Positions 1 through 36,328 of a stretch of DNA of 64,000 nt are shown here, in pieces. Under the pieces are notes generated by a model. The model saw nothing but the letters and a program-made list of their open reading frames with translations. It searched no databases and had not been told where the DNA came from. Numbering within the stretch: position 1 is the first letter of the stretch; the number at the start of each line of letters is the position of its first letter. Source of the stretch: Blasia pusilla (lineage: Eukaryota); assembly GCA_050084515.1 (NCBI GenBank), contig CM114271.1, positions 48,236,001 through 48,300,000 of the forward strand, given 5' to 3'. The translations under genes were made by a program, and so were the position numbers.

Positions 1-39
1 CAACAGGGAAGCCTAGTACCTTGCCTATTAACCCAACAT

Positions 40-730
40 AAGCAAAGCGTGCAACCTGTCGGCTTCGGACATATTGCACGCTTCTGCCTCACCTTGTAAC
101 GCTAACATGAAGGAAGCGTGCAACCCGTCGATCTTCGACGAGTTGCGCGGGTGCCGCACCTTCTTGCCCGAAGACGGTGGAGGCGTGCAACCCGTCGGTC
201 TCATACGGGTTGCGCAATTGCCTCACCTTGTGTTACTTACATTAAGGAAGCGTGCAACCTGTCTCTTTCCGACGAGTGGCACGGGCCGCACCTTCTTGCC
301 CAAAGACGGCGGAGGCGCGCAACACGTCGGCCTCAGACGCGTTGCGCAAGTGCCTCGCCTTGTAACGCTTACATGAAGGAATCATGCAACCTGTCGGCCT
401 CCAACAAGTAGCGTGGGAAGCCCACCTTGTTATCCCAAGACGAGGGAAGTGTGCAACCCACCGGAATCCGACGGGTTGCGCGGGTACCTCGCGTTCTTGT
501 TCGAAGGCGGGAAACCTGTCGGTCTCCGACGGGTTGCATGGGAACCTCGTGTTCTTGTCCAAAGACGACAGAGGCGCACAACCTGTCGGTCTCCAACGGG
601 TTGCGCGGGTATCTCGTGTTCTTGTCCGAAGATGACGGAGGCGCGCAACCTGTCGGTCTCCGATGGTTTGCCACGAGGACCGATGCCTTGAACCCTCGGG
701 AAGCGTCCAACCTGTCGAAGCGTTCGGGTT
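40..730. repeat. Tandem array of about 60-65-bp units, each containing the palindrome GCAACCCGTCGG-N3-CCGACGGGTTGC
   Basis: About ten degenerate copies are visible and the spacers resemble each other. The homologous array is at about 22960-23590. Confidence 0.9.
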
Positions 731-827
731 GGTTTTTTTTCACTCAAATTGTCCAGACTTCCATAACGGCCGGCACGTTGCCGTCGGAAGGACGATGCGT
801 CCCAACGATCAGCCCAATGACTCAAAA

Positions 828-840
828 AGTATAAATAGGG
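828..840 (+). promoter_or_regulatory. Putative TATA box of the cargo gene
   Basis: AGTATAAATAGGG lies about 330 bp upstream of ATG 1159 and is conserved in copy 2 (CCCTATTTATACT, 22862-22874). Confidence 0.5.
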
Positions 841-1158
841 GAAGGCTCGCTCATTTCCGGTTTTTTTTCGCGGTCTCAATTGCTCTTCCGCGTAGCAGTT
901 GACCAGATACCAAGGGGTGATTTACACGGCGACTCATCGCGAGACGATTCGAGTGAACGATCGCGAGACGATTCAAGCGAACGATCGCGAGACGATTCGA
1001 GCTACTCATCAAGGCGACTCACCGCGACATTAGCAAGCTGACTCATCGAGGCTACTCATCGCGATATGAGCAAGGCGACTCATAAAGGCGATTCCTCGAG
1101 CTGATTCATTGTGCACACATAGCAATTTCCTTGTCCATAGGAGGCATTTTCGGAAACA

Positions 1159-4100
1159 ATGACGAGGAAAAAATCTCAAGCAAACAAGGCTGGGAGCTTC
1201 ACTCCCAAGTCCATGAGGACTTCTGCTTCACCATCTCCAGGGCCTCGTTTGGCCAATGAGATAAGGTAGCAAGAAATCGAGGAGCGGGAAAGGGAAGCAG
1301 AGATGCACAAGCAGGAGCTTCTTGCAAAACGTGTACATGAGGCGCTCAAAAAATAGAACGCAGAGGCTGAGGCGTCGCAGGCATTGAAGAAAAGGTTCGG
1401 AGACGAAAAGTGAGAAAAGAAGCGTCTGGATGCGTCGGTAAGGAGAGCAGAATTGGAAAAAGCTCGAAGGGAAAAAGAAATTGCCATTAAAGAAAGCCCT
1501 GCCCGTCCAACCGAAAAATTTGAGATGCAGGAAATGTCCCCGATGAAGTCCGGGGACACAATCAATGTAGCGGAAACGGCCAAAGTTCAAGTGACGAACG
1601 ATGAGGTCACGAGAACCGCCAGCGTGGAGATGGTGGACATCGCTGAAGAAGCAGGAGAGCGGTCATCCTCGTCCCTAAGCCCGGCGGAAGAAATCGACCT
1701 CTATCGGATCCACGAGTTTCCAGTGGACTTGCCAGCTGCTGTCCTAGAGCAGTTGGCTGGCCTAGACACCGACCCAATCTTCGAGCGGGTAAGAGAGGAT
1801 TTGTATTCATTGAATTATGTGAAGGCCCATGTTGCGATTCATTGGAAATTCAGTGTAGCTTGTTGACCTTGTCCCCGCTGTGACAGGTGGTAAAGCAAAT
1901 GGCACTGATGGAGGGCCAGTACGTCCACAAAATTCAGTCTGATGCGGATATTGCGAAGCTGAAACAATCGGCAACGACAGCATCCTACGTCGACAGCTTC
2001 CCTCCGTTCTATGTTCAGCCTCGACTGATCACTGGTTTAGGATGATTTTGGCCGAAAGAAACTCGTTGAACTCTGACGAGTTGCTCGACTGATCACTCGT
2101 TTAGGATGTTTTTGGCCGAAAGCAACTCGTTGGAGTCCGACGAGTTGCTCGACTGATCACTCGTTTAGGATGTTTTTGGCCGAAAGCAACTCGTCGGAGT
2201 CCGACGAGTTGCTCGACTCACCGCTGTTTTTGGATGTTTTTTGAAGAAAGCAACTCGTCGGAGTCCGACAAGTTGCATTCGGAAGTAGCGGAGCTATATT
2301 TTTGTGGTCAAATTGCACCTTAATTGAAATTGCGCAACCTGTTGGACTCCGACGGGTTGATATGTTCACTTTTTTCGTGGAAACCACTATGTAAATACGG
2401 AATATCTGATAACCCGTCGGCGTTCGACGAGTTGAAACCAGACAATCACAACTCTGAATGCAATCCGTCGGACTTTGATGGGTAGCAAAATTTAGCTCGT
2501 TGCTTCCATTCCGACCATGAGCTGTGACGACCTGTCGGAGTCCGACAGGTTGCAAGAACCCATGTACCTTGCAAAATTTCTAATATTGAGTTCGGATGTG
2601 CAGGATTGTATCAGAGAGGAATGTCACCCACCACTAGATCCATGATTGCGATCGGGTGAAGAAAGTGCTAACGACGCACCCGGAAGAGTACAAGGGGTTC
2701 TTGGGCGACGCCCTTGTAAATGAGATGTTGGCAAAGGGTGCTCAAATAAAAAAAAAGACTTGGGCAAATAAGTTTATTTCCCAAGATGCAGCCGTGACAA
2801 TCCTTTGTTGGTCGAAGATACAAGCCGCCAAGAAGAGCGTTGCATTGGAGCTGGAGCGGAGCGAGAAAGTGTTTGTGTCTAAGCGTGCAAAGTTCATCCA
2901 TGCTGCAGTATCTGCAGCTACGAAGTACACGGCAAGCAAGATGCAACGCTACATCACCATTCTCAACCCACAGCTTGGCCCCTATTTTTACAAGGAGCTG
3001 AAGGCGATCATCAAGCGCCAGCGGAAGAGGAATGAAGATCCGCACGGTTGGATTGGGGAGAAAGTGTCTCTCGATCGCGTGCATCGATTTGCCTTGTCTG
3101 GAATTAGCGAATTTAGGAGAATCCGACTGATGAAAATCAATCTCGAGGGCACAGAGGCCCAAAAGAGGGCGGCACACTATCCTTCGGGTGTCTCTGATCC
3201 AATGATCTCCCATTGGCTCTGTGAATGGTCATTCTGGGATGTGTTGCGGCTTCTCGGGAAGTCCATGCTCGTGGGTCTCCAAGCGGAACTGAAAAAAATA
3301 GAGCCAGTTCCAGAGGAAGAAAACCTGGAGAGTGCTGAAGATTTTGAACTTTGGCTTGATGACATGCGGGACAAACCCATAAAAAACGCTGGTTTCAGGA
3401 CGATGTTCAAGGATCGCATCCTCCCTCAGGCAGACCTTGACGAAGAAATAGAGGCGAAAAAAGGGATTTCGCAAAGAAGAAGCAATATCTTCAGGAGCAG
3501 GCGGCCGATGCATCTCCACTAAGAGCTGCCCAACGCATGGTGTTCAGGTACCTCGTCCATTGTAAGAATGCAAGTACATGGCGAAAAATATCGGCAGCCT
3601 GCAAATTGTGGGCTTCTCCGCGTGATGGAGAGACATTTTCCATGTACGACATGGAGATGGCTCAAAGCATGTCCGATTGGGAGGTGGAGAATTGCCCGAT
3701 TTTGGCTGGACTTCAACGACCCTGAGGACATAACTGAGAAAGATCTACGCGTGCTCTATGATGCACTGGCCGCAAGTAGGGACGACATCCCCAATTTTGT
3801 GCAGCCTGAAGACTTTTTCGAAGGAGATGTGGAGGAGCAAGCCCTCGAGACAGCGGAGTTGGTGTCCAAGGTCGTCACCGTCAAGGACAAATCTATAGCG
3901 GGTCTCAAAGCCAAGGCAAGGGGATCGAAGAATTCTGAGGCTGAGTCTTCCCAAAGAGAGGCTGAAGATTCAAGGCGAGAGCCGAAATCGTCTGGGCGAG
4001 CGGGGAGAGAGGGTCGGACCAGGTCCCCCGCAAAGAAAGAGTCTGAGGTCATAGAGACCCCAACAAGCCGACCGTAGACTCAGGAGAAGCGGAAGCAAGA

Positions 4101-5614
4101 GGCGCCAGGGTTGTCCCAGGAAGCAGACCAGGATGTGGAATACACTCCATCATCCTTGGGAAGACATAGAGAAACAATGACCGGGACAAGCGTCATCCTT
4201 CACTGCAAAATCTTGTGGATGAGCTGAAAAGTTTCAGTTCCCAAGCATCGACACCCGCCATCGAGAAATTGACAACGTTGGGAAGAAAGCTTCAACGACG
4301 GTCCATGGGGAGGTCGAAGAGGTGGCGGTGGATCTCCTCGTCGCTGATTTGCCCTCGGGGTTGCGCTTGTGGGATGAGAATCCGTCCGACGGGGTCTCGG
4401 ACTGGAATGTCCCTCTTTCTTATGACCAGATCGCGCTCCTATTTTCCTTTGCAGACGCTTATCTTAGTGACAGGGGTTGTTTCTTAGTTTTGACTGGAGG
4501 AAGCAAGGATGAGCTCTTCAACCTCCAGTGCGTCAAGAGGTCGCTGAAGTGGAGGACGGCGGAATCGTGGGTCATCAAGAACGAGTACCCACTTCGATCC
4601 GCGATGAGTCAAATTCGGGTAAGGGCTCTTAATTTGTATCCAAATTGTCTTTCTCCGACGGGTTGCATCTCTGCATGCAACCCGTCGGATTTTTTGAGAT
4701 GGGTCTTTTTGCAATCCGTCTGAAAGCGACGGATTGCAAAAAGACCCATTGGGTGAATGCAACCCGTCGGAACCCGACGGGTTGCAAGTGCTACTGCTTT
4801 TGCAATTTTCTGGAATGATGCAACCCGTCTGAAAGCGACGGGTTGCAAGTGCTAAGGCTTTTGCAATTTTCTGGAATGATGCAACCCATCTGAAAGCGAC
4901 GGGTTGCTCATGGACAAAAAAATCACAAGACACTTGTTAAACAACCCGTCAGACTGTGACAGGTTGCTCCAATGTTAGGATCATAAAGAAGTTCTCTGGG
5001 GTTAAGCGAAGTTCTTTGGGGACGTGTTGCACATTATGTCACCATACTGAGAGTAGACCAAAGTGGTTGTTCTTGACATTGTTTCCAACGTGCTTCTTTA
5101 CAGATGGACCACTCCTATGTTTACTGCTTTGTTCGGCCCGAGCACAACTTCCAGGTGTTTAAGATCCTAGATCCTGTGGATCCATGCTCCGATGGATATA
5201 GCTTACATAGTTTATACAATCCCCCTGGGAATTTTCATGCAAGACGGTACCCCATTACTTGGAGGAAGGGAAAAGTCGCCAGCCCTGATGCAAACGCTCA
5301 TCGAGCTCTGCTCAAGGCCGGATGGGTTGGTGTTCGACTTAGTGGGCCTTTCAGGGGCGAGTATGAGAGGCGCCTGGCAGAGCGGTAGGAACATTCTCTG
5401 CCTTGAGGGAAGGCAACAACTCTTTGACCTTTGCAAGGAGGCAAAGGCACATTACGACAGGCTAGTTGGGGCGTACAACTCTACTCCAAAGCCGAGAGCT
5501 CTCGTTCCAGACCCACCATTGGTAGTGACACCATCGTCACTTCCCACGATTTCGAAAATCCGGAGGGCAAGGCCGACAATAATCTTGGAAGAGCTCTCAG
5601 ACGATGACGAGTGA
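1159..5614 (+). pseudogene. Spliced cargo gene, copy 1: coiled coil, truncated ParB-like domain, helical region, and beta-class N6A/N4C DNA methyltransferase-like domain
   Basis: Predicted exons about 1159-1788, 1887-2021 (truncated), 2604-4618 and 5104-5614, with GT..AG borders (GTAAGA 1789, GTAAGG 4619, CAG at 1886, 2603, 5103). Motifs VAVDLLVADLPSG (about 4322-4360) and EKSPALMQTLIELCSRPDGLVFDLVGLSGASMRGAWQSGRNILCLE (about 5270-5407). Disrupted by CAG>TAG and CGA>TGA stops and frameshifts. Confidence 0.75.
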
Positions 5615-5692
5615 GTTCAAAGAACTCAAGGACCCAGCTTGACTACAGCGTTTGGAGTAGGGATTTATTTGATGATAAGGCAAAAGATTTCA

Positions 5693-6790
5693 TAGAATAG
5701 ATCAAATGTACAGTTCCGAGCTTCTTTCGGATGTAATAAAGGACAAGATTTTTTTGAACGATGATGGTGTTTGTAAAAGTTTGTTGAATATCTTTTTTGG
5801 TCTTGTCGAATGTGATCGTCTATGTACTCTGAGGACTTCTATTTTGCAACCCGCCGGATTTCCACGGCTTGCAACTTTTCACTTTTTGACCACCGCACCT
5901 TTTTAACCACTTCCAAGCAACCTGTCGGATTCCGACAAATTGGCTGCGTGAGTGATCGGACTCTTTAGAGGCATTCTAGCGGGCTTCTTCACTTTGGCAC
6001 CTTCCCCTAGTATCATCAAACAAGGCGTAGGCTTCTTCTCTTCTCTAAGACATGTTGGATTCCTCCGACCTGTTGGATTGCCATCATGGTATTTCCAAGG
6101 ACGGAGCACATATTGATACTGGATGGGTGTCACATTGCAGAGCGTACAAGATATACTGCCGAGGAAGGCAGTGGGACTCAAATCAGGTTACATGGGACCA
6201 TTATGGTGTACCTAGGGGGGGCCAAGGCTCTCGAATTCGCCAACATTTTCGATCCCCGTCTACAATCGGCCAGAGGAGCCACCAGGACATTTCTTTTGTA
6301 CAGGAACCTAGGAGAGTTAGGAGTAGATTTGTAGATGACGAGGCTGAAGAAATCATAGACTAGATCAAATGTACATTTCCGAGATTCCTTCGGATGTAAT
6401 AAAGGACGAGATTTTTTCAACCGATAATGGTGTTTGGAAAAGTTTGCTGAATATTTTTTTTGGACTTGTGGATTGTGTTCTTCTAGCTACTCATAATTAC
6501 AATTTTGCAACCCGTACGATTCCGACGGGTTGCAAATTTTCACTTTTTGACCACTGCAACTGTTAAACCATTTCCAGGCAAGCTGTCGGATTCCGACAGG
6601 TTGGCTGCTTGAGTGATCGGACTCTTTCCCTGTGAGACCAACTTCTGACGCATTGTGGCCGGCTTCTTCACTTTTGGCTCATTCCCCTAGATTCGTCAAA
6701 CCAATTGTAGGCTTCTTTTCTTGTCTAAGATGTGCAGGATTCCTACTACCTGTCGGATTGCCATTTCCTCCTCCCAACCTGTTGGATTTT
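5693..6790 (+). repeat. Direct duplication (about 660-bp period) of the 3' region of the cargo gene
   Basis: TAGATCAAATGTACA...GGATGTAATAAAGGAC...GGTGTTTG occurs at about 5698 and 6361. The same duplication is in copy 2 (about 17340-17470 and 16650-16780). Confidence 0.85.
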
Positions 6791-9129
6791 TGTGGGTGCA
6801 GGATGGAATGGAATCACTTCTCAAAATCTTTCCTTTGTTATGGTGCAAGCCATCTGATTCAGACGGGTTGCAAGAGTTGCAACCTGTAAAATTCGGACGG
6901 ATTGGGAGGGGTGCAGCTTCTCGGTTTCTTAGATTTAGGATCTGAATGAAGGGACATCAGTTCCTCTTTACTCTAGACAGCTAACAACCTTTTGGTTCAA
7001 TTATCGTCTCCTGTGTTCACATTTCACAAAGTTGGTCTTTATTTGATCCTTTCATTGAGATGAGATTGCTACTTCTGGTCAAATTATTTGCCAATGGTCC
7101 TCCAACAAAAATACCCCTGGGCACAGCTTATTGTAGACTGAGACAGAAAATGTGAAGAAACTTAGGCTCACGTGGAGAGTAATGTAGTGGTCTTATGATG
7201 TCTACTTGTTTTTCGCCCCCTTGAAAAAGGAGGTTTCTTTAGGCTCGAATGTGGACCACTACCTACTCTCTTCTATTTGCTTTCATGAATTTGAAAGCAA
7301 ACAAAAATTTCAAATATGTCAAAAATTTTTGAAGAGAGGAGGCGGATTTGGCCCCTTTTTTTTAAGAGAGACTCTCCTCTCTTCCTCTCTTCCTCTCCTC
7401 TCTTCCTCTCTCCTACCAGAATACCAACCCCCAGTATGTTCCATCAATATGATTTTTGGTTTTATACTTCATTTCTGTTGTAGGTTCAATTCCTGGAGGA
7501 TAAGTAGGCTCTCTTGTAGGTACATTGATCTCATACTTAAAGGATCATATGTTGATTTACCTTTGGTTCTGCACTTCTATTTTCTGATTGATTGTATGCA
7601 ACTCTAGTTGGAATTGATCCTAGTATGTGCCTTGTGTTCTATCTACTCATCAGAATAGTATGTGGTAGAGTTTTGCTATTACGGAGGGGTCATGGGTCAA
7701 ATGGAAATCGTTGACACTAATGGTGAGGGAGGTCTTAGCTCTAACAATGGGTCTGATGATGGTTGTCCAAGTAGTAATTCCACATGATCCTTGATATACA
7801 AAGAAGTTTGCGAGGTATTGTGCACAATGGTGAGGGATTGTATGCGCCAGTTGGTGGAAGAGTTGCGGTATTACTCTTGCCTTTACTGATTTTCGCTTTA
7901 GATTCTTGATCCCAAATGCTGATTACTGAGTGTGGAATGATAATGACATGTAAATGTTTTACCTTTTTCTCATTTTCATATAATAAACCATCTAATTTTT
8001 AATAGATAAGTGATTGTAGTATTCCGTATCCTATGCTAGGATTTGTAGGTGACTAGCATAACTTAACTTCTAGAATTGGAGGACTTCTTTTTTGGAGGCG
8101 TATCTTGATACTACTAAAAAAAAAGGACTCGCAAGGATTCTGAAGGTCACTCGTACATTCTTCCAAAGATTCATCATACCAGAGCTCGTGTGAGGAATCA
8201 GAGTGTCCAAATGGAGGAGAATATCATAGATGGAGAAAGTCTGAGTGGCCATGGAGTCAACTCTTCAGATCCAAAGTTCGATGTGGAGATGGAACCAATA
8301 TTTTCTCTTAGTGATCATGAGCTTCAGATGGGAAAATCGTAATGTAAGGGAGTGGGGAAAGGAAAGTCTCCTTCCAAAAGGAAATCTCCTGGGAAAGGAG
8401 AGTGCTCATCTCTTGGAAACAAGCGTGGAAAGGTTCATAAGTGCTCCAAGAATAGTCGACCTTCCGTGAGATTTTGTTTTTGTACTCTTTTGTTTTTATG
8501 TTACAATATTACTTGAATGATAGACTTGTTGAAGAAATCCACCAAAGAAGTTACACCTAATCTTATCATGTTGATCTATATTCTTGTAGGTACCCATTCC
8601 TCAACATCATAGTATGTCTCAATGGCCTGGGTAAAGGCTTCATCCAAGCTTTACCATGCCATCACAATGGCCCCTCCACCAAGGTAAAATTACATGTCCC
8701 GCATGTCCATTTACACTCTGGTTTTTGGAATCATAATCAACTTTGGCATGGCCTTACTAATATCTGCCATTTAATTTTGTCCATGGACAAGTAGTTCTCA
8801 ACCACCATCGGGATTGGCTCCTCGTGGCACATACTATCGTCCCAATGGACCTTTCTATAGATCCCTCCCGACCAATATACATCTTGTACCTGATTGGCAT
8901 GGCCAGACTCTTGTAGAGACCACAACCATTGAAGGAGAATCAGATGGTCATAATGTTGTTGATGAAGATGCCTACCCATTGCGTGAGTAAATCTGCTTGT
9001 GCATGTAATATTGCAAGAATGGATTAGTTGAGGTTCAATTTTATCAGGTCCAACTTTGGAATTTAGGCCCCTAGCATAACTTCCTCCATTCATGATGAAT
9101 TAATATGGAATGCTTGTCTCTACTGGGTG

Positions 9130-10925: not shown

Positions 10926-11439
10926 CACAAAAACGGACAAGTCCTTCCTTAAGACGGACATGGACGGACAAGTCCGGACATGGGTTCCAAGAGGTGGGAT
11001 CCACACTTATAGTCCATGATGGAAGGCAAGGCAAGGATGAGAGAAGCAATGAGGGAGGAGGGAGTGGAGATGGAGGGAGGAAGAAATAGGGGAGAATGGA
11101 ACAAGAAGGCAAGTAAGGGGAATAAGAAAGAAGGGAAAGGTGGGGCCCATATGGACAAGTCCTTCCATAGGACGGACATATATCCACGGATATGGACTTT
11201 GTCCACATGCAACCTTGTTCGTGAAGAAGGCCTAGCTAGCTAGCAAATAATAATCATTTTAGATTTTGCACTTGGATGAAAGTTATAAGTTCACGAAATT
11301 TAATAGAGTGTAAGAATTTTGTTTCACTTGCATTGTCAATTAACCCTTACTAGTTGGATGATGCATGATGCCATTATTTCATGCTCAGAAAATCTTGGTT
11401 TTTAATACTCTTATTTCAGTGGAACTAAAATTTGAAAAT

Positions 11440-11713
<274 letters not shown>

Positions 11714-14700: not shown

Positions 14701-17540
14701 TGGAAATTCAACCAGCACACCTACTCAAGGCTCACAACTAGAGACTACTAAACAACATAAGGCCATCCAATACGCTGTCTAGTATAATCATCCACCCCTA
14801 GGGTAGCCTGAAAGGGGAGCAACTCTCTAGTTGCTCAAACCAACACCCACATCCCTTCTTCTTCTCCTCTTACCTTGCTGGTCCTTTGTTCTCCCTTCTT
14901 GTTCAGGTAGTAGGAGACTTAACAGGCTGAGCCCATGGTCTTCTACCTATAGGGAAGCTCAAGCATGACCCTCTCTCTCCACTCACTAATCTCTTATCAC
15001 TTACCAGACTTGGAAGTCCAGGTTGTCACACCCTAGAAGTAATCAGTGATTGGTGTCAAAGGCCATACTCAGGTGGGTAGAACAGCAAGCTTTCAAAGCA
15101 TACCTTGGAGGAGCACAATCTTGGAACCCAAGCTTTCCTCCCCTCTATTGGTATAGCCTCTTGTACACTCACTACACGTTTGAATGATTAGTTGAACCAG
15201 CTCCAAGAATCTCACTTCATCAAGCCCCCCAACTCATCACTCAATCATGCACAAACTCAGATACAGGGCAGTGGAGTGAAATCATTTCACAGGGCTACTT
15301 TCTGTGTATCACAAAATCATCGAGTACATGGGAGACCTTCTTAGTCTCAGCCCCCTTCAAGCACACTAGACACTACCTAGATCTAGGAGCACATACTCTG
15401 CTGGTTAGCTTGGCTCAAGAGATCGAGTGTCTACTAGCCAAAAACATGTATGCCCCCTTCAACTAAACCAAATTGAGTATTTATAAGTGAAGCTGAGAGC
15501 CCTCTACCCACTTGGGCTTCTCTAGCATTCTGATTTCCTACCTTCCTACAAATCTACATCCCCCTAAGCATCTACTGCCTGAAATTTCTACCTCATCTAC
15601 TTGTGAACCTGTCTTAACTAAAGTCTCTTGAGCAGCATTGATGGCATAGGCTCGACTTGTCTCTTGGACATGCTTGAAGGTAAGATCTACCTTTACGGGG
15701 GCTGGTATTCTGGCAGGAGAGAGTAAGAGAGGAGAGTCTCTCTTAAAAAAAAAGGGCCAAATCCGCCTCCTCTCTTCAAAACTTTATGACATATTTGAAA
15801 TTTTTGTTTGCTTTCAAATCCATGAAATCTTTAGAAGAGAGTAGGTAGTGGTCCACATTTGGCCCTAAAAAAACCTCCTTTTTCCTTGGGGCGAAAAAAA
15901 AGTAGACATCATAAGACCACTACAAACATTTTTCCATCTCCTCATCTCGGTCAAAAAAAAGCAATGCCCTTGGTATTTTTGTTGGAGGACCACCCGGATG
16001 CCAACCCTAAGCATCTACTCCAAGGCATCTACTGCCTGAAATTTCTACCTCATCTACTTCTGAACCTGCCCTAACTAAAGCCTCTTGAGCAACATTGATG
16101 GCATAGGCTCGACCTGTCTCTTGGACATGCTTGAAGGTGAGATCTACCTCTATATTCTTCCCATGCTTGCTTCTTCTCAATCTGGTTCGAGCCCCTGCCT
16201 CGTTCACACCTCCACTTAGCTCCATCTACACAAATCTTCCAGAAATCACTCCTTGGATCCTCTCAACTCCATAGATCTCTCCTTGATTCTCAAGCTTTAT
16301 GGCCTTCAAATGAGGTCCTCTAGGCTTCCATGAGGAATCTTCTAGCCCACAAGATTCCAAGCATTTGAGCTCAGCCTCCATTGACCTCTTCTTAGCCCCT
16401 TATTCTTCATTTCTTGGCCCTAACAATCAGATCCACCCCTTGGTTCAAACCCTCCTCTACAACAAAGCAATCAAGCACTCTATCTCCTTCATTGGATACC
16501 CCGAGACTCCCTAGTGCCTACACCATCTCCTTGTCTCCTCTAGGCTTGAGGTCAATGGAGTGACTTGGCTGCATTATCACCTTGTACAATCTTCTTGACT
16601 TGTTCTTGACAAACTTTTGTCTTTGGCCTTTCTCTTGCACCACCTCCACAAGTCCAAAAACATATTCCAGAAAACTTTTACAAACACCATTATGGGTTCA
16701 AAAAATCCTTATTACCTCCGAAGGAACCTCGAAATGTACATTGAACCTAGTCTATGATTTCTTCAGCCTCGTCATCTACAAATTTACTCCTAACTCTCCT
16801 CGGTGACAAGTACCAAAGGAATGTCTTGGGATTCAAGTGGCTCCTCCGGCCGGTTGTAGACGGGATCAAAATGTTGGCGACTCGAGAGCCTTGGCCCCCC
16901 TAGGTACACCATAACGGTCCCATGTAACCTGTCTCGAGTCCCACCGCCTTCCTTGGCAAAAGATACCTTGTACGCTCTGCAATGTAACACCCATCCAGTA
17001 TCAATATCTGCTCCGTCCCCGGTAATACCACTATGGCAACCGCACAGGTAGAAGGAATCCAACACGTCTGAGAGAAGAAAAGAAGCCTATGCATACCTTT
17101 ACGAGTTGAGGGGAAGGTGCCAAGGGAAGAAGCCCGCCAGACTGCCTGATCCGAAAGGGTTCGATCAGGCAACCTGTCGGAATTAGACAGGTTGCCTGGA
17201 GGTGGTAAAAAGGGTCCAGTGGTCAAAAAGCGAAAAGTTGCAAGGAGGAGAAATCCGACGGGTTGCAGTGGTCATAAAGTGAAAATTGCAAGCACGAGAA
17301 ATCCGACGCTTTGCAAAGTAGAAGACCGTGGAGTACATAGACGATCACATTCAAAAAGACAAAATGATCACCAAACATTTACAAGCACCACCATCGATCG
17401 AAAAAATCTTCTGCTTTATATCATCCGAAAAAAGCTCGGAACTATACATTTGATCTATTCTATGAAATCTTTTGCCAAATTATCAAAAAACTCCCTACTC
17501 CAAACGCTGCAGTCAAGCTGGGTCGTTGAGTTCTTTGAAC

Positions 17541-20500
17541 TCACTCGTCATCGTCCGAGAGCTCTTGCAAAATCACTTTCGGCCTTGCCCTCCCGATTTT
17601 GGGAATCGTTGGAAGTGACGATGGAGTCACTACCAAGGGATGGCTCGAACCGAGCTCGGCTTCGTGGAGAGTTGTACGCCCCAACGAGCCTTTCAGATTC
17701 GCTTTGCCTCCTTGCAAAGGTCAAACAGCTTCCGCCTTCCTCGAGGCAGAATGTTCTCGCCACTCTTCCAGCCGCCTCGACGATACTCGCCCCCTGAAAG
17801 GCCCACTAAGTCGAACACCAAGTCACCCGGCCTTGAGTAGAGCTCGATGAGCGCTTGCATCGGGTGGCGACTTTTCCCTTCCTCCCAAAAGCGGGTATGT
17901 CTTGCATGTAAATTCCGGGGAATTGTACAAACTATCTAAGCTGCACGCCCGAGCATGGATCCACAGGATCCTGGATCTTGAACACTGAAATTGTGCTCGG
18001 GCCGAACGGCAAAGACACGAGGGAGTGGTCCATCTCTAAATCAAAGACGAAACAATGTTTAAAACTAAAGAAGTCGCTTTGAGAAGATTTTCAATAATCG
18101 ACTTTGATCAACTCGCCGGAGTCCGACGGGTTGTTTTGTCTCGACCCACCCGCCGGAACCCGACGGGTTGCGCTTGCTTTTGGGTTTTCCAAGTTGATTT
18201 TGGTTTTCGGATGCAACCCGCCGGAAGGCGACGGGTTGTCGCCCAGACCAGCCCATGCTCGCTTCTCGAGAGCAACCCGCCGCTATTAGACGGTTGCATC
18301 CAAAACAAAATCAATCAGCAACCCGACGGAACCCGACGGGTTGCGTACACCGCGTTTTCCCCCTGTATGTGGGAAAGATGCAACCCGCCGAAACCGACGG
18401 GTTGTTTCTCACGAGCATGGGTCGCTCTAAGCCAAAGAACCCATCGCTTCCGACGGGTTGCTCACGGACAAAAAAACCCAGATCGACTCTCATTCTACAC
18501 ATCATTATAAGATAATTGAAATTATTGTACAGAATATAGCCTTACCCGAATCTGATTCGTTGCGGATCGGAGTGGGTACTGCTTTTGATGATCCATGATT
18601 GTGTCGCCCTCCACTTTAGCGACCTCTTGACGACTGGGAGGTTGAAGAGCTCGCCCTCGCTCCCTCCATCAACACCAAGAAGCAGCCCCCTGCCACTCGG
18701 GATAGGCGTCGCAAAGGAGAACAAAAGTGCACTGGTCATAAGTGAGCGGCGATTCCACTCAGTACCTCGTCCGCCGGATTTTCGCCCCAAAGTCGCAACC
18801 CCGAGGGCAGATCGGCGATCAAGAGATCCACCGCAACCTCTTCCACCACTCCATTCACCGCCCGGCAGCGTGCCCGCTTTCGCTGGAGCTTCCTTCCAGC
18901 CGTTGTCAATTTTTTGATGGCGCTTGTCGACGCTTGAGAACTGAAGTTGTTCACTCATCCAAGAAAGAGGTGAATCAAGGAGGACGCTTGTCCGGTCGTT
19001 GTTTGTCCGTGTCTTCCCAAGGATGATGGGCTGTATTCTCCTTGGGACAACCCGGCACCTCTCGCTCCGCTTCTCTAGTCTGGGGGACGGCTTGTCGGGG
19101 TTTCGATGACCTCGATTCTGGTGGCGTTTTCTTTGCCGAGGACCTGGTCCGACCCTCTCTTCCGCTCGTCCGGACGATTCCGCCTATGGCCTCTCATCTT
19201 CAGGCTCTCTTTGGGAAGTCTCGGCCTCTGAATTTTTCCCCTCGCTTTGCCTTTGAGACGCCTGTGGATTTGTCTTTGGTGTCCGGACCTTGGAAGCCAA
19301 CTCACTGCCTCTGGGCCTCGCTTCTTCAGCATCTCCTCCAAGAAGTCTTCAGCCGGACGAAATTGGGGATGTCGTCTTGTCCCGAGGCCATTGCATCATG
19401 AAGCACTCGTAAGTCCTTATCCGCGATGTCTTCAGTGGTCGTTGAAGTCGAGCCAAATGGGGCAATTCTCCACCTCCCAATCCGACATGTCCGACCCATC
19501 TCCACGTCGTACATGGAGAATGTCTCTACATCCGCGGCGGCCCACAATTTCAAGGCTACCGCAATTTTTCCCCACGACGCGTGCGTTCTTACACCGACGA
19601 GGTACTGAATACCATCCGTTGGGCGCTTTTAGTCAAACATTATCGGCCGTCTTCCTCAGAGATCTCGCTTCTTCATCGCTTGATCCCGTTTGTTACCCTC
19701 TACTTCTTCGTCAAGCTCGCTCGAGGGAGGACGCAAACCTTGAACATGGTCTTGAATCCAGGGTTCTTGGTTGGCTTGTCCCGGATGTTGTCGAGCCAAA
19801 CCTCGTAATCTCCAGAACTTTCAAGGTTTGCTTCCGGCGGAATGGGCTCTAATCTTCTCGAGCCCGCTGCGCACCGTCAAAGACTGACTTCCCGATTACC
19901 CACAACGCATCCCAGAACGACCATTCGCGTAGCCAATGTGAGATCAGTGGATCGGACACACCTGGAGGATGGTGTGCCGCCCTCTTCTGGGCCTCTGAGC
20001 CCTCGAGACTGATTTTCATTAGTCGTATCCTCTTGAACTCGCTAATCCCGATAACGCAAAACGATGCACGCGATCCAGCGACACTTTCTCCCCAATCCGA
20101 CCATGCGGATCTTCATCCCTCTTCCGCTGACGCTTGATAATCGCCTTGAGCTCCTTGTAGAACTCCGGACCAAGTTCGGGGTTGAGAATGCTGATGTATC
20201 GCTGCATCTTGCTCGCCGTGTATTTCGTTGCAGCAGATACAGCAACTTGGATGAATTTGGCGCACTCAGACGCAGATACCTTCTCCCTCCGCTCCAGCTC
20301 CAGTGCAGCGCTTTTCTTCGCGGCCTGTATCTTTGACCAACAAAGGATGGTTACGGCTGCATCTTGAGAAATAAACTTGTTTGCCCAAGTTTTCTTCTTA
20401 ATTTGAGCACCCTTTGCAAGCATCTGATTACGGAGGCATCGCCCAAGAACCCTCAGACTCTCCCGGGTGCGTCGTAAGCACCTTCCTCACCCGATCGCGA

Positions 20501-22594
20501 TCCCCGGATCCAATGGTGGGTAACATTCCCTCCGATACAATCCTCGCACATCCAAACTCAACCCGTCAGGAAATTACATGGGTTCGTGCAACCCGTCGGA
20601 CTCCAACGGGTCGTCACAGCTTAGGGTCGGATTCTAGCAACAAGCTAAATGATGCAACCCGTCGGAGTCCGACGGGTTGCATTCAGATTTGCTAATGCCA
20701 GGTAAGCAACTCGTCGGACTCCGACGGGTTCTGCCGGATCGCGACGCTTTTTCGGATGTTTTTAAGATTGCAACTTCGCGGACTCCGACGACTTGTATGA
20801 TTGAACATAGATTTAACTAGTTGTTGGCCCAAAGCAAACCCTCGAGTCCACGGGTTGCTCGATAAGGTCGCCTTGTGAGGTTTTTTTAAGAATGCAAACT
20901 CGCCGGACTCGACAAGTTGTTTCGAGTAACTCGGAGGTTTAGAAGGTTTTGCCCCAAAGCAACCCGCCGGAGTCCGACGGGTTGCTTTGCCTCGGCTATT
21001 TCTCCCTAATCAACCCGTCGGAGTCCGACGGGTTGATTTCGGCCAAAAATAGTTTCGAGGCAAGTTACCCGTCGGACTCCGACGGGTTCCTTTGGGGCAA
21101 AAACCTTCTAAACCTGCAGTCACTCGAGCAACTCGTCGGAGTCCGACGAGTTGCATTCTTAAAAAAACAACCTCACAAGGCGGCCTTTCGAGCAACCCGT
21201 TGGACTCCGACGGTTTGCTTTGGGCCAAAAACTAGTTAAATCTACGTTCCATCAAACAAGTCGCCGAGTCCGACGAAAGTGTCAATCTTAAAAGACATTC
21301 GAAAATCAGGCTTAGCAACCCGTCGGAGTCCGACGAGTTGCTTTCTGCCTAAACAAACCTAACCCATTCATCAATCGATCAACTCGTTGGAGTCCGACGA
21401 GTTGCGAAAGTGTTAAAGATACTTACGTGTTCATGGCATGCATTGCCATCTCCACCGTCGCCATGTGATGAGGGTATGGGTGAAGGACCACTGCCTTCAC
21501 GCAGAAATGTGCCTCCAATGAGTTGGGGCGCTCCTCCACAAACTTGGTCCATGCCATGAACTGTGATTTCCATCCCGGATGAAGAAATGCAGATTCCTCA
21601 TCCGGCTGAATTCCGTGCCCTCAACTTGCCTTCAAGTCCTGGTCTCGCATCCTCCGAGAATGTGTCGAGATTTTCCAAGTCCTCCTTGGTAACCAGAGCT
21701 TGGGTTCCATGCTCGTCGTAAGGCTGAACATAGAAGGGAGGAAAACGCCCACGAGGGATGTCGCCGCCACGATTGTTTTAGCTTTTGCGATGTCCTCGTC
21801 GAATCAGATTTCGCGGACGTATTCCATTGTCCTTAATCGGCAGAGTGGAATCCTCGGGCGTTAGGCCCTCCATGAGTGCCATCTCGCTTTACCACTGTCG
21901 AACCGGGACAAGAGGAATAAGCTACACTGAAATCCCAATGAATTGCAATTCACATAATTAAAAAACCATAACCTCTCTTACCCGCTTCGAAAATGGAGTC
22001 GGTTTCTTGACCACTAACTTGCGAGACAGGGTGGCAAATCGATTGGGAACTCGTCGATCCGATAGAGGTCGATGTCCTCCGCCGGGCTTGGAGTCAAGAA
22101 TGACCGCTCTCCGGCTTCTTCCGCCATGTCCACCATCTCCACGCTGGCGGTCCTCATGACCTCGTCGTCATCGAGTTGAACTAGTGTTGTTTCCACTATG
22201 TTGATTGTGTCCCCGGACTTCGTGGGGGACATTTCCCGCATCTCAACACTTGCGGTTGGACGGGCTGGGCTATCGCTTTTTCCCACCTCGCTTTAGCCAA
22301 TTCCGCCCTCCTCACCGACGCGTCCAGACGCTTCTTTTCTCTCTTTTCGTCGGCGATCCTTTTCTTCAAGGCCTGCGACGTCTCGGCCTCTTTGTTCTGT
22401 TTATCTAGCGCCGCTTGAACACGTCTCGCCAAAAGCACTTGGTTGTGCATCTCTGCTTCCCTTTCCCGCTCCTCGATTTCCTGCTGCCTAATTTCATTCG
22501 CCGAACGAGGCGCAGGAGAAGCTAACGCAGGAGTCCTAATGGACTTGGGAGTGAAGCTCCCGGACTTGTTGGCTTGTGTTTTTTTCCTCGTCAT
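17541..22594 (-). pseudogene. Spliced cargo gene, copy 2: ParB/Srx-like domain plus beta-class amino-methyltransferase-like domain
   Basis: Starts MTRKKTQANKSGSFTPKS (22594). Exon about 21894-21427 reads FPPFYVQP...LHFFIRDGNH[R]FMAWTKFVEERP...AMHAMN, then donor GTAAGT. VAVDLLIADLPSG lies at about 18800-18840 and LVFDLVGLSGAS at about 17785-17825; stop at 17541-17543. Many 1-bp indels. Confidence 0.75.
20570..21410. repeat. Intronic palindrome array
   Basis: Includes a perfect ATGCAACCCGTCGGA-G-TCCGACGGGTTGCAT at 20652-20682, with more than ten variants around it. Confidence 0.9.
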
Positions 22595-23850
22595 TTTTGC
22601 CGGAAATGCCTCCGCCTATGTCCACGATGAATCCCTTGATCAGTCGCCTTGCTGATGTCGAGATGGGAACTCGTCTCGCCTTGGTGGTTAGCTCGAATCG
22701 TCCCGATATCGCTCGGTCGAACCGTCTCGCTCTCGTTCCGTCCTATCGACTCGCGATGTGTCGCCGCGTGAAATGCCCCTTCAGATCGATCGCCTCGCTG
22801 GGAGAATGAGGAGTGAGGAATGAAGATCGCGAAATGAGAAACCGGAAATGAGCGACTTCTGCCCTATTTATACTTTTCTAGCCGTTGGGCTGACCGTTGG
22901 GTCCCGTCGTCCTTTCGACGGCGACGTGCCGAATGTAACGGAAGTCCGGACGTGAAAAATCGCAACCCGTCGGAGTCCGACAGGTTGCGCGGCTCCGCCA
23001 TCCTGGGTACGTCGCCACGTGCGCGAGCAACCCGTCGGAGCCCGACGGGTTGAGCGCCTCCCATCGTCTTCGGAAAAGAACGCGAGGTACCCGCGCAACC
23101 CGTCGGAGACTGACATGTTGCGTGCCTCCGCCATCTTGCGAACGTCGCCACGTGCGCGAGCAACCCGTCGGAGACCGACAGGTTGAGCGCCTCCGTCGTC
23201 TTCGGAAAACAACGCGAGGTACCCGCGCAAGCCGTCGGAGACCGACATGTTGCGCGCCTCCGCCGTGTTTGGGACGGGAACGGGACGTATTTTGGGCAAT
23301 CCGTCGGAGACTGTTGGGTTGCACGCTTCCCTTATCAAGGGTTAGGAACGATGGCTTCCCATGCAAGTCGTCGGAGTCTGGCTGGCTGCACCACAAGGCG
23401 ACGCCCTTGCGCAACCCGTTGGACGGCGACGGGTTGCACGCCTCGCCGGGAACAGACGGTTTGCACGCCTCCGGCATCTTTGAGCAAGAAGGAGCGGTAT
23501 CCCAGAAAGTCGTCGGAGAGCGACGGGTTGCTCGCTTCGACAATGTTTTAGAGCGTGCAACCCGTCCGATGCCGACGGGTTGCGTGCTTCGTAAGCTTCG
23601 GGTAATTTTCGAGTTACAGGACTCGACGGTTCCAAGTGATGCGCAACCCTCTGCTTCCCAAATCCGATAACATATTGCAACACAATTGAATGTGTTACAG
23701 AATTGGATCCATTGTGTCAGACAATCTCCCCCACCGAATTCATCTTGTTAGTAAAAATCTGTCAGGAGTATCTGTTTCCTATTCACTATAAATTAAATAT
23801 TCTCATTCTCATTCTCATTCTCAATCTCCTCCCGTAGGAATCTTCTTGGA

Positions 23851-26800: not shown

Positions 26801-27892
26801 ACTTGAGGCAAGTGAAGAGGCAAAGATCGAGAACGAATCCGGTGATTGATTTGGATGAGGAAATTACACCGCCCAGGTATTCGGGGACCCTGGACCCGTC
26901 CCAAATCCGTGATGGAGTTACTTCTCGAAAATCAGTGAATGTTTTATTTCAAAAGCCCTCCGTTATCGGAAGTTCGCAACATCCCGCCACTGGGGTGGTT
27001 CAACAATATGGGATTCGGTAATGGAGGTGGATTGCAACCTAAAACGGTGGCATATATCTCGGAGCAACCCAGGACGTGGACCCATCTGGCAGGCGGGATC
27101 GATGGCATTAGGAGAGCATGCGGCACTTTCCTAAATAAGAACTATACAAGGATCGGCGACACTCGCCTGGGTTTTGGGGACTCAAAACCTTTGATCGTTT
27201 CACGAGGACCGAGGGATCAATTGAAGTACTTCTTCTGCCCAAATGAATCTTGCGCTTTCCGGAAGTCTTATCCACTGCCATTGAGCTCCCGAATACCCCA
27301 CGATTTGGCCCATCGCCGTGAGGGGCACCGAGCGCACTCAAGACGGTGGACAATCTTACAAGTGCCGGTTTCAGACTCATAGACGGGAAGTTCGGAGCAT
27401 GTTCGCGATTCATGAGAGACCTTTGCATTTTGTATTCAACCCAAGATTGATGTCAACATGTACCCGGAGAAGGTGGATGATCTCAATCCATTATTTCTGT
27501 TTGATTCTAGAAATGGGGTGAAGAGAAACAGAATGTGTAGGCCAACGGTGGAGAGAGCAAAACGAATTGCAGCAGCTCGGGAGGCAAAAATGGAGATCAT
27601 TGCCACGAAAGATGTCCTGAGTGGCAATGGAATAGGAAGGATGTATTGGGTCAAGAACAACACTGTAAATGCAAGTGTCACAGGGGTGTATGTGGTGCAC
27701 ATCTGTTGCTTTCCCACATGTTCATGTGATGACTTTGTCCAAAGAGAGACAAGTGGCAAAAGGTATTTCCCTTGTAAGCACATGTACTATCTATTGCTGG
27801 TAGTCTTAAGAGAGTCGGAGGTAGGAGTAGGAATCCACCAACCAATTCTGTCCCTCAAAGAAGTTCGAAGTATTTTAAACAAACCACTTTGA
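23851..27892 (+). pseudogene. MULE-type DDE transposase with a C-terminal SWIM zinc finger (frameshifted)
   Basis: Cys/His-rich N-terminus (RCPHC...HVGSHTHPV). Candidate catalytic motifs WVGFD (about 25305-25320), GFMVDNA (about 25510-25530), DAFHWQQS (about 25600-25623) and TNSLVEA (about 26485-26510, frameshifted). SWIM motif CSC...PCKHMYY (about 27718-27790). Intron donor GTGAGT at 25852. Start codon uncertain. Confidence 0.8.
25975..26130. repeat. 35-bp tandem repeat (x4) of a palindrome variant in the transposase intron
   Basis: GCAACCCGACGGAAACCGACGGGTTGC (one copy with a substitution) starts at 25995, 26030, 26065 and 26100. Confidence 0.92.

Positions 27893-31276: not shown

Positions 31277-36328
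<5,052 letters not shown>

What the first reader, a model, noticed from the sequence alone, without database searches (positions are those of the whole stretch)
4322..5614. Beta-class amino-methyltransferase-like domain with non-canonical catalytic motifs
VDLLVADLPSG aligns by eye with motif IV (vDlivtDPPYg). EKSPALMQTLIELCSRPDGLVFDLVGLSGAS...QSGRNILCLE aligns with the N6_N4_Mtase block (qKP..L...lI...s.pgd.VlDpFaGsGtt..aa...gR..igiE). Catalytic motif before SAM motif is the beta permutation. Both copies read DLPS and DLVGLSG, so the deviation is a family trait rather than decay. The protein may be an altered-specificity enzyme or a catalytically dead DNA/SAM-binding pseudo-enzyme (inference).
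Basis: partly seen in the sequence, partly recalled or inferred. Interest (0 to 1): 0.82.

Follow-up and report, generated by a model that had tools for sequence, protein, structure and literature searches.

The report
Degenerate DNA-methylase domain in plant repeat
A many-copy repeated element in a plant genome carries the broken remains of a gene whose last domain descends from bacterial or phage DNA amino-methyltransferases but has lost the residues those enzymes need to bind their cofactor and flip a base.

Summary

**C-terminal half (5192-5440).** This is a real N6_N4_Mtase (PF01555) relative.
- Pfam alone is below threshold (18.2 bits against a cutoff of 26.7).
- hhalign against 8 genuine phage methylases gives 96-97% probability.
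- 28 of 30 sampled tblastn phage hits fall on annotated DNA methylases.
- 38 diverged relatives exist in public assemblies. With the window's own sequence that makes 39, of which 26 hit PF01555.

**N-terminal half (4283-4618, DLPSG).** Support is weaker.
- It is invisible to Pfam, PDB and BLAST.
- hhalign places DLPSG on DPPYG (E 0.002; 0 of 100 shuffles reach that score).
- It evolved under purifying selection (dN/dS 0.16).

The order, with motif IV before motif I, is the beta permutation. The odd motif I is shared with the relatives, so it is a family trait. DLPS is seen only in the two window copies.

Both copies are pseudogenes with stops and frame breaks. They also belong to a high-copy, unclassified repeat family.

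The most likely reading is a non-catalytic methylase-derived module. Activity is untested.

The parts
36..674 (.). 5' array of about 67-nt units, each holding the palindrome arm GCAACCCGTCGG or its complement
1147..1866 (+). first exon-like ORF of copy A (Lys/Glu-rich, MTRKKSQANK...), with 3 in-frame stops
   Evidence: A-versus-B mismatches by codon position are 29/27/59 and dN/dS is 0.33.
2638..3519 (+). central ORF of 294 codons with no known family, closed by a stop at 3520-3522
   Evidence: Codon-position mismatches are 40/32/94 and dN/dS is 0.19.
3523..4074 (+). continuation in the same frame (184 codons), closed by a stop at 4075-4077
   Evidence: dN/dS is 0.32.
4283..4618 (+). N-terminal half of the methylase-like domain: strand plus motif IV (VAVDLLVADLPSG, with DLPSG at 4346-4360), DW, and a motif V-like GCFLVLTGG
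   Evidence: hhalign. ESM Atlas neighbours. dN/dS 0.16.
4619..5103 (+). intron-like gap (GTAAGG...ACAG) filled with copies of the 27-nt palindrome
   Evidence: No RNA joint was seen across it.
5104..5154 (+). MDHSYVYCFVRPEHNFQ, a strand-like piece in another frame. It matches ...VVLLVKTG... at the start of the relatives' continuous ORFs.
   Evidence: The frame break lies between about 5155 and 5190.
5192..5440 (+). C-terminal half of the methylase-like domain: GGREKSP (in place of HPxxKP; EKSP = 5270-5281), motif I VFDLVGLSG (5330-5356), GR, and the motif II Glu (5405-5407)
5441..5614 (+). Pro/Ser-rich acidic tail and stop codon
   Evidence: no predicted structure
17500..22615 (-). copy B of the same gene, 74-80% identical to copy A in DNA, with many frameshifts. 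DLPSG starts at 18813 and VFDLVGLSG at 17818 (- strand).

Best explanation
The region is the 3' part of a decayed copy of a gene carried by a high-copy, unclassified repeat family of a plant genome.

The ancestral gene encoded roughly 1000 residues: a Lys/Glu-rich start, an orphan middle region, and a C-terminal domain derived from a beta-class (permuted) N6_N4 DNA amino-methyltransferase of the bacterial or phage type.

The fold-defining core and two acidic cofactor-site residues (the motif I Asp and the motif II Glu) are kept. Three motifs have been replaced:
- The catalytic motif IV reads DLPS instead of (D/N/S)PP(Y/F/W/H).
- The glycine loop of motif I reads L-V-G-L-S-G (L-S-A-S-T-G in relatives) instead of P-F-x-G-S-G.
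- The HPxxKP cofactor motif reads GGREKS (GSREIS in relatives).

Inference: the domain no longer transfers methyl groups. It was kept by selection as a binding module for DNA, or for a partner protein, serving the element.

Shown: homology of the C-terminal half, the motif states, multi-copy status, pseudogene state of both window copies, and past purifying selection.

Inferred: loss of catalysis, and any binding role.
For: Homology of the C-terminal half:
- Pfam N6_N4_Mtase E 0.0026 at profile positions 165-220 of 221.
- RsrI and DpnA are the best PDB sequence hits.
- tblastn against phages found 86 records. Of 30 rows spread down the ranking, 28 lie on features annotated as DNA methylase or methyltransferase.
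- hhalign against 8 phage methylases that each pass PF01555 (E 1e-23 to 3e-42) gives 96.6% and E 5e-10, 97.4% and E 1e-11 for the single sequence, and 96.0% for the 39-row family.
- 26 of 39 family members hit PF01555 at E <= 0.01 (best 4e-6). The only other family hit was one zinc-knuckle match.

N-terminal half:
- The only hhalign alignment puts EVAVDLLVADLPSGL on the DPPY block.
- With copy B added, the score is 25.4 and E 0.002. Column shuffles give mean 12.5, sd 2.7, max 21.6, and 0 of 100 reach it.
- ESM Atlas neighbours with a family are all methyltransferases (MTS, UPF0020) at 0.91-0.92. Genuine PF01555 proteins also touch UPF0020 at their motif IV.
- The joined read-through aligns colinearly over 189 columns.

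Selection, from comparing A with B:
- dN/dS is 0.16 for the N-half, 0.19 for the 294-codon ORF, and 0.33 and 0.32 for the other two exons. Wrong frames give 0.75-2.1.
- Mismatches by codon position in the N-half are 18/9/36.

Motif states. Roles of the motif IV Asp or Ser, Pro carbonyl and Tyr, and of the cofactor contacts (His, Asp, Ser, Thr), come from passages of PMC10406627.

Multi-copy status:
- 10,665 reads of a genomic run (about 1 in 100 of it read) lie on 7,001 bases. Only 268 are at 99% or more and 7,518 are at 90-95%.
- The 38 relatives each sit on separate large contigs.
Against: - The window sequence does not reach Pfam's gathering score (18.2 against 26.7 bits).
- The N-terminal half has no hit in Pfam, NCBIfam, PDB or phage tblastn.
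- The N-half adds nothing to the joined hhalign score: 70.1 against 69.2 for the C-half alone, and 81 of 200 shuffled N-halves do as well.
- AlphaFold2 models of the two halves are unusable (mean pLDDT 37.2 and 42.3), so the fold is not shown.
- dN/dS of the C-half between A and B is 0.71, no better than its wrong frames at 0.75-1.59.
- Loss of activity is argued from motifs only. The Asp of motif IV, its second Pro, the motif I Asp, one Gly and the motif II Glu remain, so an unusual enzyme is not excluded.
- The element type is unknown. No transposase, reverse transcriptase or recombinase was found in the ORFs scanned within the repeated unit.
Confidence: 0.6

Rival explanations
1. The ancestral protein is still an active amino-methyltransferase (DNA or RNA) that works with an unusual motif IV (DLPS) and an altered cofactor loop, giving altered specificity.
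For: The motif IV Asp and second Pro, the motif I Asp (29 of 35 relatives), the second Gly (26 of 35), GR and the motif II Glu (27 of 31) are retained. The N-half is under strong purifying selection (dN/dS 0.16).
Against: - The aromatic residue that stacks on the target base is Ser.
- The first Pro, whose carbonyl binds the target amino group, is Leu.
- The His of HPxxKP is Gly.
- The first loop Gly is Leu or Ser, and the Thr after the loop is Ala (roles from PMC10406627 passages).
- Relatives also lose the Lys (Ile in 37 of 37).
Confidence: 0.13
2. Only the C-terminal half (helix, motif I, motif II) is methylase-derived. The DLPSG exon is unrelated sequence and its resemblance to motif IV is chance.
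For: There are no Pfam, PDB or BLAST hits for the N-half. It adds nothing to the joined hhalign score. The single-sequence E is only 0.02-0.06.
Against: - The best and only hhalign alignment falls exactly on motif IV, in the right order and at the right spacing.
- The two-copy profile gives E 0.002, with 0 of 100 shuffles reaching it.
- The ESM neighbours are methyltransferases.
- ESMFold2 places the halves together, but the support is weak: score 0.41 against a best control of 0.00 (see the full report for the calibration counts).
Confidence: 0.15
3. The domain is a neutral fossil of a captured bacterial or phage methylase gene that never served the element.
For: Both window copies are broken. 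The C-half dN/dS is 0.71.
Against: - dN/dS is 0.16-0.33 in four of five coding pieces, against about 1-2 in wrong frames.
- The same non-canonical residues are conserved between families only 23-39% identical.
- Introns are present.
Confidence: 0.08
4. There is no methylase homology at all, only a chance motif resemblance.
For: The Pfam score is below the gathering threshold.
Confidence: 0.03

Closest known systems
Type II beta-class DNA amino-methyltransferases, Pfam N6_N4_Mtase PF01555 (for example M.RsrI and DpnA, and phage methylases)
   Same: Domain order is motif IV, V, strands, helix, motif I, motif II. The C-terminal half is homologous by profile-profile comparison. RsrI and DpnA are the best PDB hits.
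   Different: Motif IV reads DLPS. Motif I lacks Pro, Phe and the first Gly. HPxxKP reads GGREKS. The domain sits at the end of a protein of about 1000 residues, is interrupted by an intron, and lies in a eukaryotic repeat. It scores below the Pfam threshold.
Eukaryotic domesticated N6_N4 methylases: bdelloid N4CMT and Marchantia MpDN4MT1
   Same: A bacterial-type permuted N6_N4 domain in a eukaryotic nuclear genome, with introns (PMC8885841 passages; bioRxiv 10.1101/2021.02.12.428880 passages).
   Different: Those are single or duplicated host genes with intact SPPY or TSPPY motifs and shown 4mC activity. This one is a many-copy repeat-borne gene with degenerate motifs.
PAG2 accessory gene of giant Plavaka (EnSpm/CACTA) and other DNA transposons of red algae
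   Same: A PF01555 domain carried as an accessory gene by a proliferating element. Arrays of inverted repeats lie inside the element (bioRxiv 10.1101/2025.02.11.637652 passages).
   Different: PAG2 also has a SET domain and sits beside a DDE transposase. No SET domain and no transposase were found in the ORFs scanned here. The host here is plant-like, not a red alga. Supplementary tables of that preprint were not seen.
MT domain of DIRS1-like retrotransposons
   Same: A methylase-like domain of unknown function at the end of an element-encoded protein (PMC3266345 passages).
   Different: The DIRS MT domain is detected with Pfam Dam PF05869 and follows RT and RNase H, with a tyrosine recombinase in the element (PMC3783388 passages). 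Here there is no Dam, RT, RNase H or recombinase hit in the repeated unit. DIRS is reported as absent from land plants (PMC9033089 passage).
Pseudo-methyltransferases such as METTL14 (recalled, not tested)
   Same: A methylase fold with a degenerate motif IV, kept as a non-catalytic binding partner.
   Different: Different family (MT-A70). The resemblance is in logic only, and it comes from memory rather than from any call.

Membership tests
N6_N4_Mtase (PF01555) | Score at or above Pfam's gathering threshold | tested here: not met
   18.2 bits against 26.7, E 0.0026. 26 of 39 family members hit at E <= 0.01, best 4e-6. 3 of 38 relatives carry a precomputed PF01555 mark.
N6_N4_Mtase (PF01555) | Homology of the cofactor-binding half (helix, motif I, motif II) | tested here: met
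   hhalign gives 96.0-97.4% probability and E 5e-9 to 1e-11 against 8 genuine members.
N6_N4_Mtase (PF01555) | Catalytic half lying N-terminal to motif I (beta permutation) | tested here: inconclusive
   DLPSG aligns on DPPYG. E is 0.02-0.06 for one sequence and 0.002 for two copies, with 0 of 100 shuffles reaching the score. There are no Pfam, PDB or BLAST hits.
N6_N4_Mtase (PF01555) | Motif IV (D/N/S)-P-P-(Y/F/W/H) | tested here: not met
   DLPS in both window copies.
N6_N4_Mtase (PF01555) | Motif I D-P-F-x-G-x-G glycine loop | tested here: not met
   The window reads D-L-V-G-L-S-G. Relatives read D-L-S-A-S-T-G, with first Gly position Ser 29 and Leu 5 of 35, and second Gly kept in 26 of 35.
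N6_N4_Mtase (PF01555) | H-P-x-x-K-P motif before motif I (invariant in the 8 reference methylases) | tested here: not met
   The window reads G-G-R-E-K-S. Relatives read G-S-R-E-I-S, with Ile in 37 of 37.
N6_N4_Mtase (PF01555) | Rossmann-like methylase fold | tested here: inconclusive
   AlphaFold2 of each half alone gives pLDDT 37.2 and 42.3. No fold search was run on such models.
N6_N4_Mtase (PF01555) | SAM-dependent methyl transfer to N6-adenine or N4-cytosine | not testable with these tools
   Needs a biochemical assay.
DIRS1-like retrotransposon MT domain | Pfam Dam (PF05869) match, with RT, RNase H and a tyrosine recombinase in the same element | tested here: not met
   No such Pfam hit at E <= 10 for the ORFs of 1414-5611. 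The definition is taken from PMC3783388.
Plavaka-type PAG2 accessory gene | PF01555 domain together with a SET domain, beside a DDE transposase | tested here: not met
   No SET or transposase hit in the ORFs scanned. Only ORFs of 100 or more codons were scanned, and copy A runs off the window's start.

The most novel reading that the evidence does not exclude
A land-plant mobile-element family has turned a bacterial or phage DNA methylase fold into a non-catalytic, sequence-specific reader of its own DNA. The dead domain would bind the 27-nt palindrome (GCAACCCGTCGG, 3 bases, CCGACGGGTTGC) that fills the element's 5' array, introns and 3' region. It would mark copies for transposition or shield them from silencing, in the manner of the subterminal-repeat binding proteins of CACTA elements or the VANDAL anti-silencing factor.
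Probability: 0.1. Interest if true: 0.8.

Novelty: new variant of a known kind. Interest (0 to 1): 0.55.

Why it matters
Bacterial-type N6_N4 methylase domains are very rare in eukaryotes. The known nuclear cases (bdelloid N4CMT, Marchantia DN4MT1) are active single genes, and a 2025 preprint reports the domain in accessory genes of red-algal giant transposons.

[quoted passage not shown] My searches found no report of a PF01555-type domain in a land-plant repeat.

A conserved but motif-degenerate copy in a plant repeat family would be a natural example of a methylase fold reused without catalysis. It is a candidate for how an element recognises or protects its own DNA.

The limit is that this locus is a dead copy, and neither the element's class nor the domain's activity is known.

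Tried and rejected
- **Own genome:** not held.
- **Protein searches that found nothing:**
  - The word-index search with the N-half at 'near' lengths returned none.
  - The same search with the 294-codon ORF returned none.
  - The library of 1.84 billion representatives, searched with the C-half, gave only P0001 and P0002. P0002 is a 3064-residue repetitive protein with 5 stretches, judged spurious and dropped from all alignments.
- **Metagenome contig scans:** two scans (alignment A2, and the 294-codon ORF) found pattern matches, but none was confirmed by tblastn.
- **N-half searches:** PDB sequence search gave 0 hits at E <= 10. NCBIfam gave none. Phage tblastn gave 4 records, none on a methylase.
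- **ESM Atlas for the 294-codon ORF:** scores were only 0.81-0.82, with IQ-motif clusters and recognition 1851, so it was not used.
- **AlphaFold2 of each half:** pLDDT 37.2 and 42.3. I did not run fold search, because such models give meaningless matches.
- **Sequencing runs:** no RNA holder was listed.
- **RNA reads laid:**
  - 74, 144 and 75 reads were laid, mostly 90-95% alike, so they come from other copies.
  - No joint was seen for 4618 to 5104, so the splice is not confirmed.
- **DIRS hypothesis:** rejected, because there is no Dam, RT or recombinase hit.
- **MULE idea:** a CxC...CxH-like ORF at 27416-27892 has no Pfam hit.
- **CACTA termini:** the A/B homology ends near 7432 without a TAGTG end. 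The 5' end of copy A lies off the window.
- **One paper reading** failed on a two-letter term and was not repeated.
Full report
**What is at the coordinates.**

On the + strand, an ORF piece at 4223-4618 reads ...VHGEVEEVAVDLLVADLPSGLRLWDENPSDGVSDWNVPLSYDQIALLFSFADAYLSDRGCFLVLTGGSKDELFNLQCVKRSLKWRTAESWVIKNEYPLRSAMSQIR. It ends at a GTAAGG donor-like site. After ...TTTACAG at 5103 comes MDHSYVYCFVRPEHNFQ (5104-5154). In another frame, 5171-5611 reads ...IPLGIFMQDGTPLLGGREKSPALMQTLIELCSRPDGLVFDLVGLSGASMRGAWQSGRNILCLEGRQQLFDLCKE..., followed by a Pro/Ser-rich acidic tail and a stop.

A second copy lies inverted. Copy A (about 434-7432, + strand) matches copy B (about 23272-15718, - strand) at 74-80% DNA identity. 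Copy B reads VAVDLLIADLPSG and VFDLVGLSG. With relaxed patterns for the two motifs, these four places are the only matches in all six frames of the window.

**Setting.**

The window looks like a plant genome.
- It holds a pectinesterase fragment (PF01095, E 2.5e-54). Its best PDB relatives are 1gq8 and 1xg2 (E 4e-37 and 5e-34), against 1e-16 or weaker for the rest. That the first two are plant enzymes is recalled, not printed.
- It holds a LINE reverse transcriptase, a weak zf-RVT match and a Ty3-type integrase SH3 domain.

Copy A and copy B are members of a high-copy repeat.
- A genomic run of the same species label, of which about 1 in 100 was read, laid 10,665 reads on 7,001 bases at 92% identity or more.
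- Of these, 268 were 99% alike or more, 2,879 were 95-99% alike, and 7,518 were 90-95% alike. Depth per bin, summing the two strand columns, ran from about 16 to about 454.
- This locus can own at most the 99%+ reads, so at least some 40 copies lie within 92% identity. This is my arithmetic.

Many positions of copy A differ from nearly all reads. One example is 5325-5326, GG to AC in 262 of 267 reads, which turns PDG into PDD. Copy B reads PGD there, the same Asp just before LVFD.

Both copies are dead. Copy A has:
- three in-frame stops in its first exon-like ORF (1147-1866);
- a stop at 3520-3522 inside an otherwise continuous frame, 2638-4074, and a further stop at 4075-4077 that closes that frame;
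- a frame break near 4290, where copy B has 19 extra bases that restore continuity;
- another frame break between about 5155 and 5190.

Copy B has many indels.

RNA runs of the species gave 74, 144 and 75 reads. These were mostly 90-95% alike and mostly in the orientation expected for sense transcripts over 5080-6480. This means low transcription of other copies. There was no joint for 4618 to 5104.

**C-terminal half: a real methylase relative.**

- Pfam gives N6_N4_Mtase at E 0.0026 and 18.2 bits, under the 26.7 cutoff, at profile positions 165-220 of 221.
- PDB sequence search gives RsrI (E 0.027) and DpnA.
- The search of 1.84 billion representatives found one true relative, P0001 (E 3e-6). 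P0001 on its own hits PF01555 at E 1.8e-4.
- A profile of the two found 38 relatives in the larger collection. All are from ENA assemblies, on contigs of 36 kb to 1.18 Mb, and they are 23-39% identical to the window in the alignment.
- Of the 39 sequences, 26 hit PF01555 at E <= 0.01 (best 4e-6). No other family recurs.
- tblastn of the window's C-half against 50,697 phage records gave 86 records. Of 30 rows spread over the ranking, 28 lie on annotated DNA methylases or methyltransferases of at least eight host genera.
- I took eight of those phage genes, all clear PF01555 members, and aligned them. hhalign then gave 96.6% and E 5e-10 for the 2-row profile, 97.4% and E 1e-11 for the single sequence, and 96.0% for the 39-row family.
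- The family profile finds DpnA in the PDB at E 9e-4.

**N-terminal half: weaker, but in the right place.**

It has no hit in Pfam, NCBIfam, PDB sequences or phage tblastn. Joined to the C-half, it adds nothing to the hhalign score: 70.1 against 69.2, and 81 of 200 shuffled N-halves do as well.

Against that, four observations support it:
- Its only hhalign alignment puts EVAVDLLVADLPSGL on ns-D-iitDPPY (E 0.063). With a greedier setting the score is 19.4 and E 0.022, against shuffles with mean 12.5, sd 2.4 and max 22.7.
- Adding copy B, read through with X at its breaks, raises this to 25.4 and E 0.002. Of 100 column shuffles, none reaches it (max 21.6). DW and GCFLVL fall on the methylases' D-W and motif V.
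- ESM Atlas neighbours that carry a family are all methyltransferases (MTS, UPF0020) at 0.91-0.92. The tool says shuffled proteins reach that level 4-10 times in 100. Three of the eight genuine phage methylases also touch UPF0020 at their motif IV.
- ESMFold2 put the C-half against the N-half and the 30-residue piece with 'weak support'.
  - The score was 0.41, the best of 3 controls was 0.00, runs agree in at least 46% of contacts, and the partner's pLDDT is at least 52.
  - The mark was reached by 51 of 78 solved complexes and by 2 of 108 mismatched pairs.
  - At 0.60 or under, it was reached by only 5 of those 78 and by all 4 mismatches that passed, out of 180.
  - The job is unlike the calibration, and halves of one known fold may pass by likeness.

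AlphaFold2 on each half alone failed (pLDDT 37.2 and 42.3).

**Order and motif states.**

The colinear alignment runs: motif IV, motif V, strands, helix, motif I, motif II. This is the beta permutation.

The table compares the window and its relatives with the residues that are invariant in the eight reference methylases.

| Reference motif or residue | Window | Relatives |
|---|---|---|
| H-P-x-x-K-P | G-G-R-E-K-S | G-S-R-E-I-S (Ile 37 of 37) |
| Motif I Asp | kept | kept in 29 of 35 |
| Motif I Pro | Leu | Leu in 34 of 35 |
| Motif I Phe | Val | Ser 25, Leu 9 of 35 |
| First loop Gly | Leu | Ser 29, Leu 5 of 35 |
| Second loop Gly | kept | kept in 26 of 35 |
| G-R before motif II | kept | kept in 26 of 35 (Gly) and 26 of 34 (Arg) |
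| Motif II Glu | kept | kept in 27 of 31 |

Motif IV reads D-L-P-S.

In the N4CMT and CcrM structures, the first residue of motif IV and the carbonyl of the first Pro hold the target amino group, and the Tyr stacks on the base. A His, two Asp, a Ser and a Thr contact the cofactor analogue (PMC10406627 passages).

The shared Leu-for-Pro and the shared loss of the first Gly, in families this far apart, show that the odd motif I is old and conserved. DLPS is documented only in copies A and B.

**Selection.**

Between copies A and B, mismatches pile up at third codon positions: 18/9/36 in the N-half, 40/32/94 in the 294-codon ORF, 29/27/59 and 26/25/40 in the other two pieces.

| Piece | Nei-Gojobori dN/dS |
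|---|---|
| N-half | 0.16 |
| 294-codon ORF | 0.19 |
| First exon (1147-1866) | 0.33 |
| 184-codon ORF (3523-4074) | 0.32 |
| Wrong frames (controls) | 0.75-2.1 |
| C-half | 0.71 (74 codons, dS only 0.19) |

Most of the divergence between the two lineages therefore happened while the protein was in use. The C-half result says nothing either way.

**What it most likely was.**

It was an element-borne protein whose methylase-derived end was kept for something other than methyl transfer, most simply for binding DNA or a partner. This is inference from motif loss together with conservation.

A possible ligand is at hand. The 12-mer GCAACCCGTCGG, allowing up to 1 mismatch, occurs 79 times in the window against 0.1 expected. 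Of these, 77 lie inside 1-6871 or 17169-26323. It often occurs as a perfect 27-nt palindrome, and it appears in a 67-nt-period array at the 5' side, in both intron-like gaps and at the 3' side. Nothing here tests binding.

**Comparison with the known.**

- It works like a beta-class N6_N4 methylase fold but fails three motif tests and the Pfam threshold, so I file it as derived from that family, not as a working member.
- It is not a DIRS MT domain. That domain matches Pfam Dam PF05869 and comes with RT, RNase H and a recombinase (PMC3783388), and none of these is here.
- The nearest precedent for an element-borne PF01555 domain is PAG2 of red-algal Plavaka and other giant DNA transposons, which also carries a SET domain (bioRxiv 10.1101/2025.02.11.637652 passages). 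Neither SET nor a transposase was found here.
- Land-plant DNA-methylase-bearing transposons are stated not to exist in PMC6338049. DIRS elements are stated to be absent from land plants in PMC9033089.
- My five literature searches found no report of this family.

**Verdict.**

- The homology claim is sound for the C-half and probable for the whole domain.
- 'Family trait' is shown for motif I and is plausible for motif IV.
- The locus itself is a dead copy of a repeat.
- Novelty: a new variant of a known kind. Interest is moderate.

Noticed in passing
window 36-674, 2020-2275, 4655-4907, 6522-6871; 17169-23583; 25975-26323: The 12-mer GCAACCCGTCGG (up to 1 mismatch) occurs 79 times against 0.1 expected. 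It often forms a 27-nt perfect palindrome, and it occurs in tandem arrays of about 64-67 nt period. Of the 79 matches, 77 lie in or beside the two element copies.
   Followed up: partly
window 5623-6092 and 5671-6627: A tandem duplication of about 663 nt lies downstream of the stop codon (84-87% between units). Reads of other copies, RNA (12, 20 and 3 reads) and DNA (16 reads), skip 468 nt from 5623 to 6092. It is therefore an indel among copies, not a splice.
   Followed up: partly
window 7183-7432 and 15924-15680: The last 250 nt or so of the A/B homology is far better conserved (92%) than the rest (66-80%). The homology stops abruptly after ...CCAGAATACCA(A/G)CCCCC. This may be an element end or a separate small repeat.
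   Followed up: partly
window 27416-27892 (+), repeated inverted at 47264-47466: An ORF with a CxC...CxH pattern reminiscent of a SWIM zinc finger. It has no Pfam hit at E <= 0.01.
   Followed up: partly
window 12359-14209 and 32078-34317; 30328-30627 and 35251-35550: Other direct repeats of 86-93% identity, unrelated to the finding. The ORFs there have no Pfam hit.
   Followed up: no
window 29568-30116, 30663-31268, 52835-53554: A LINE-type reverse transcriptase (RVT_1, E 7e-18), a weak zf-RVT match and a Ty3-type integrase SH3 domain (E 1.5e-20). These are ordinary retrotransposon debris.
   Followed up: no
window 57915-58580: A pectinesterase exon (PF01095, E 2.5e-54). It is the only ordinary host gene piece seen.
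   Followed up: no
window 11362-11814: A long CT/GA dinucleotide microsatellite, which reads as SLSL... on one strand and RERE... on the other.
   Followed up: no
window 5436-5457: RNA reads of two runs (5 and 11 reads) leave the window sequence after 5436 and resume about 20 nt further on. The transcribed copies therefore carry a short deletion in the region just after the domain (loose ends).
   Followed up: no
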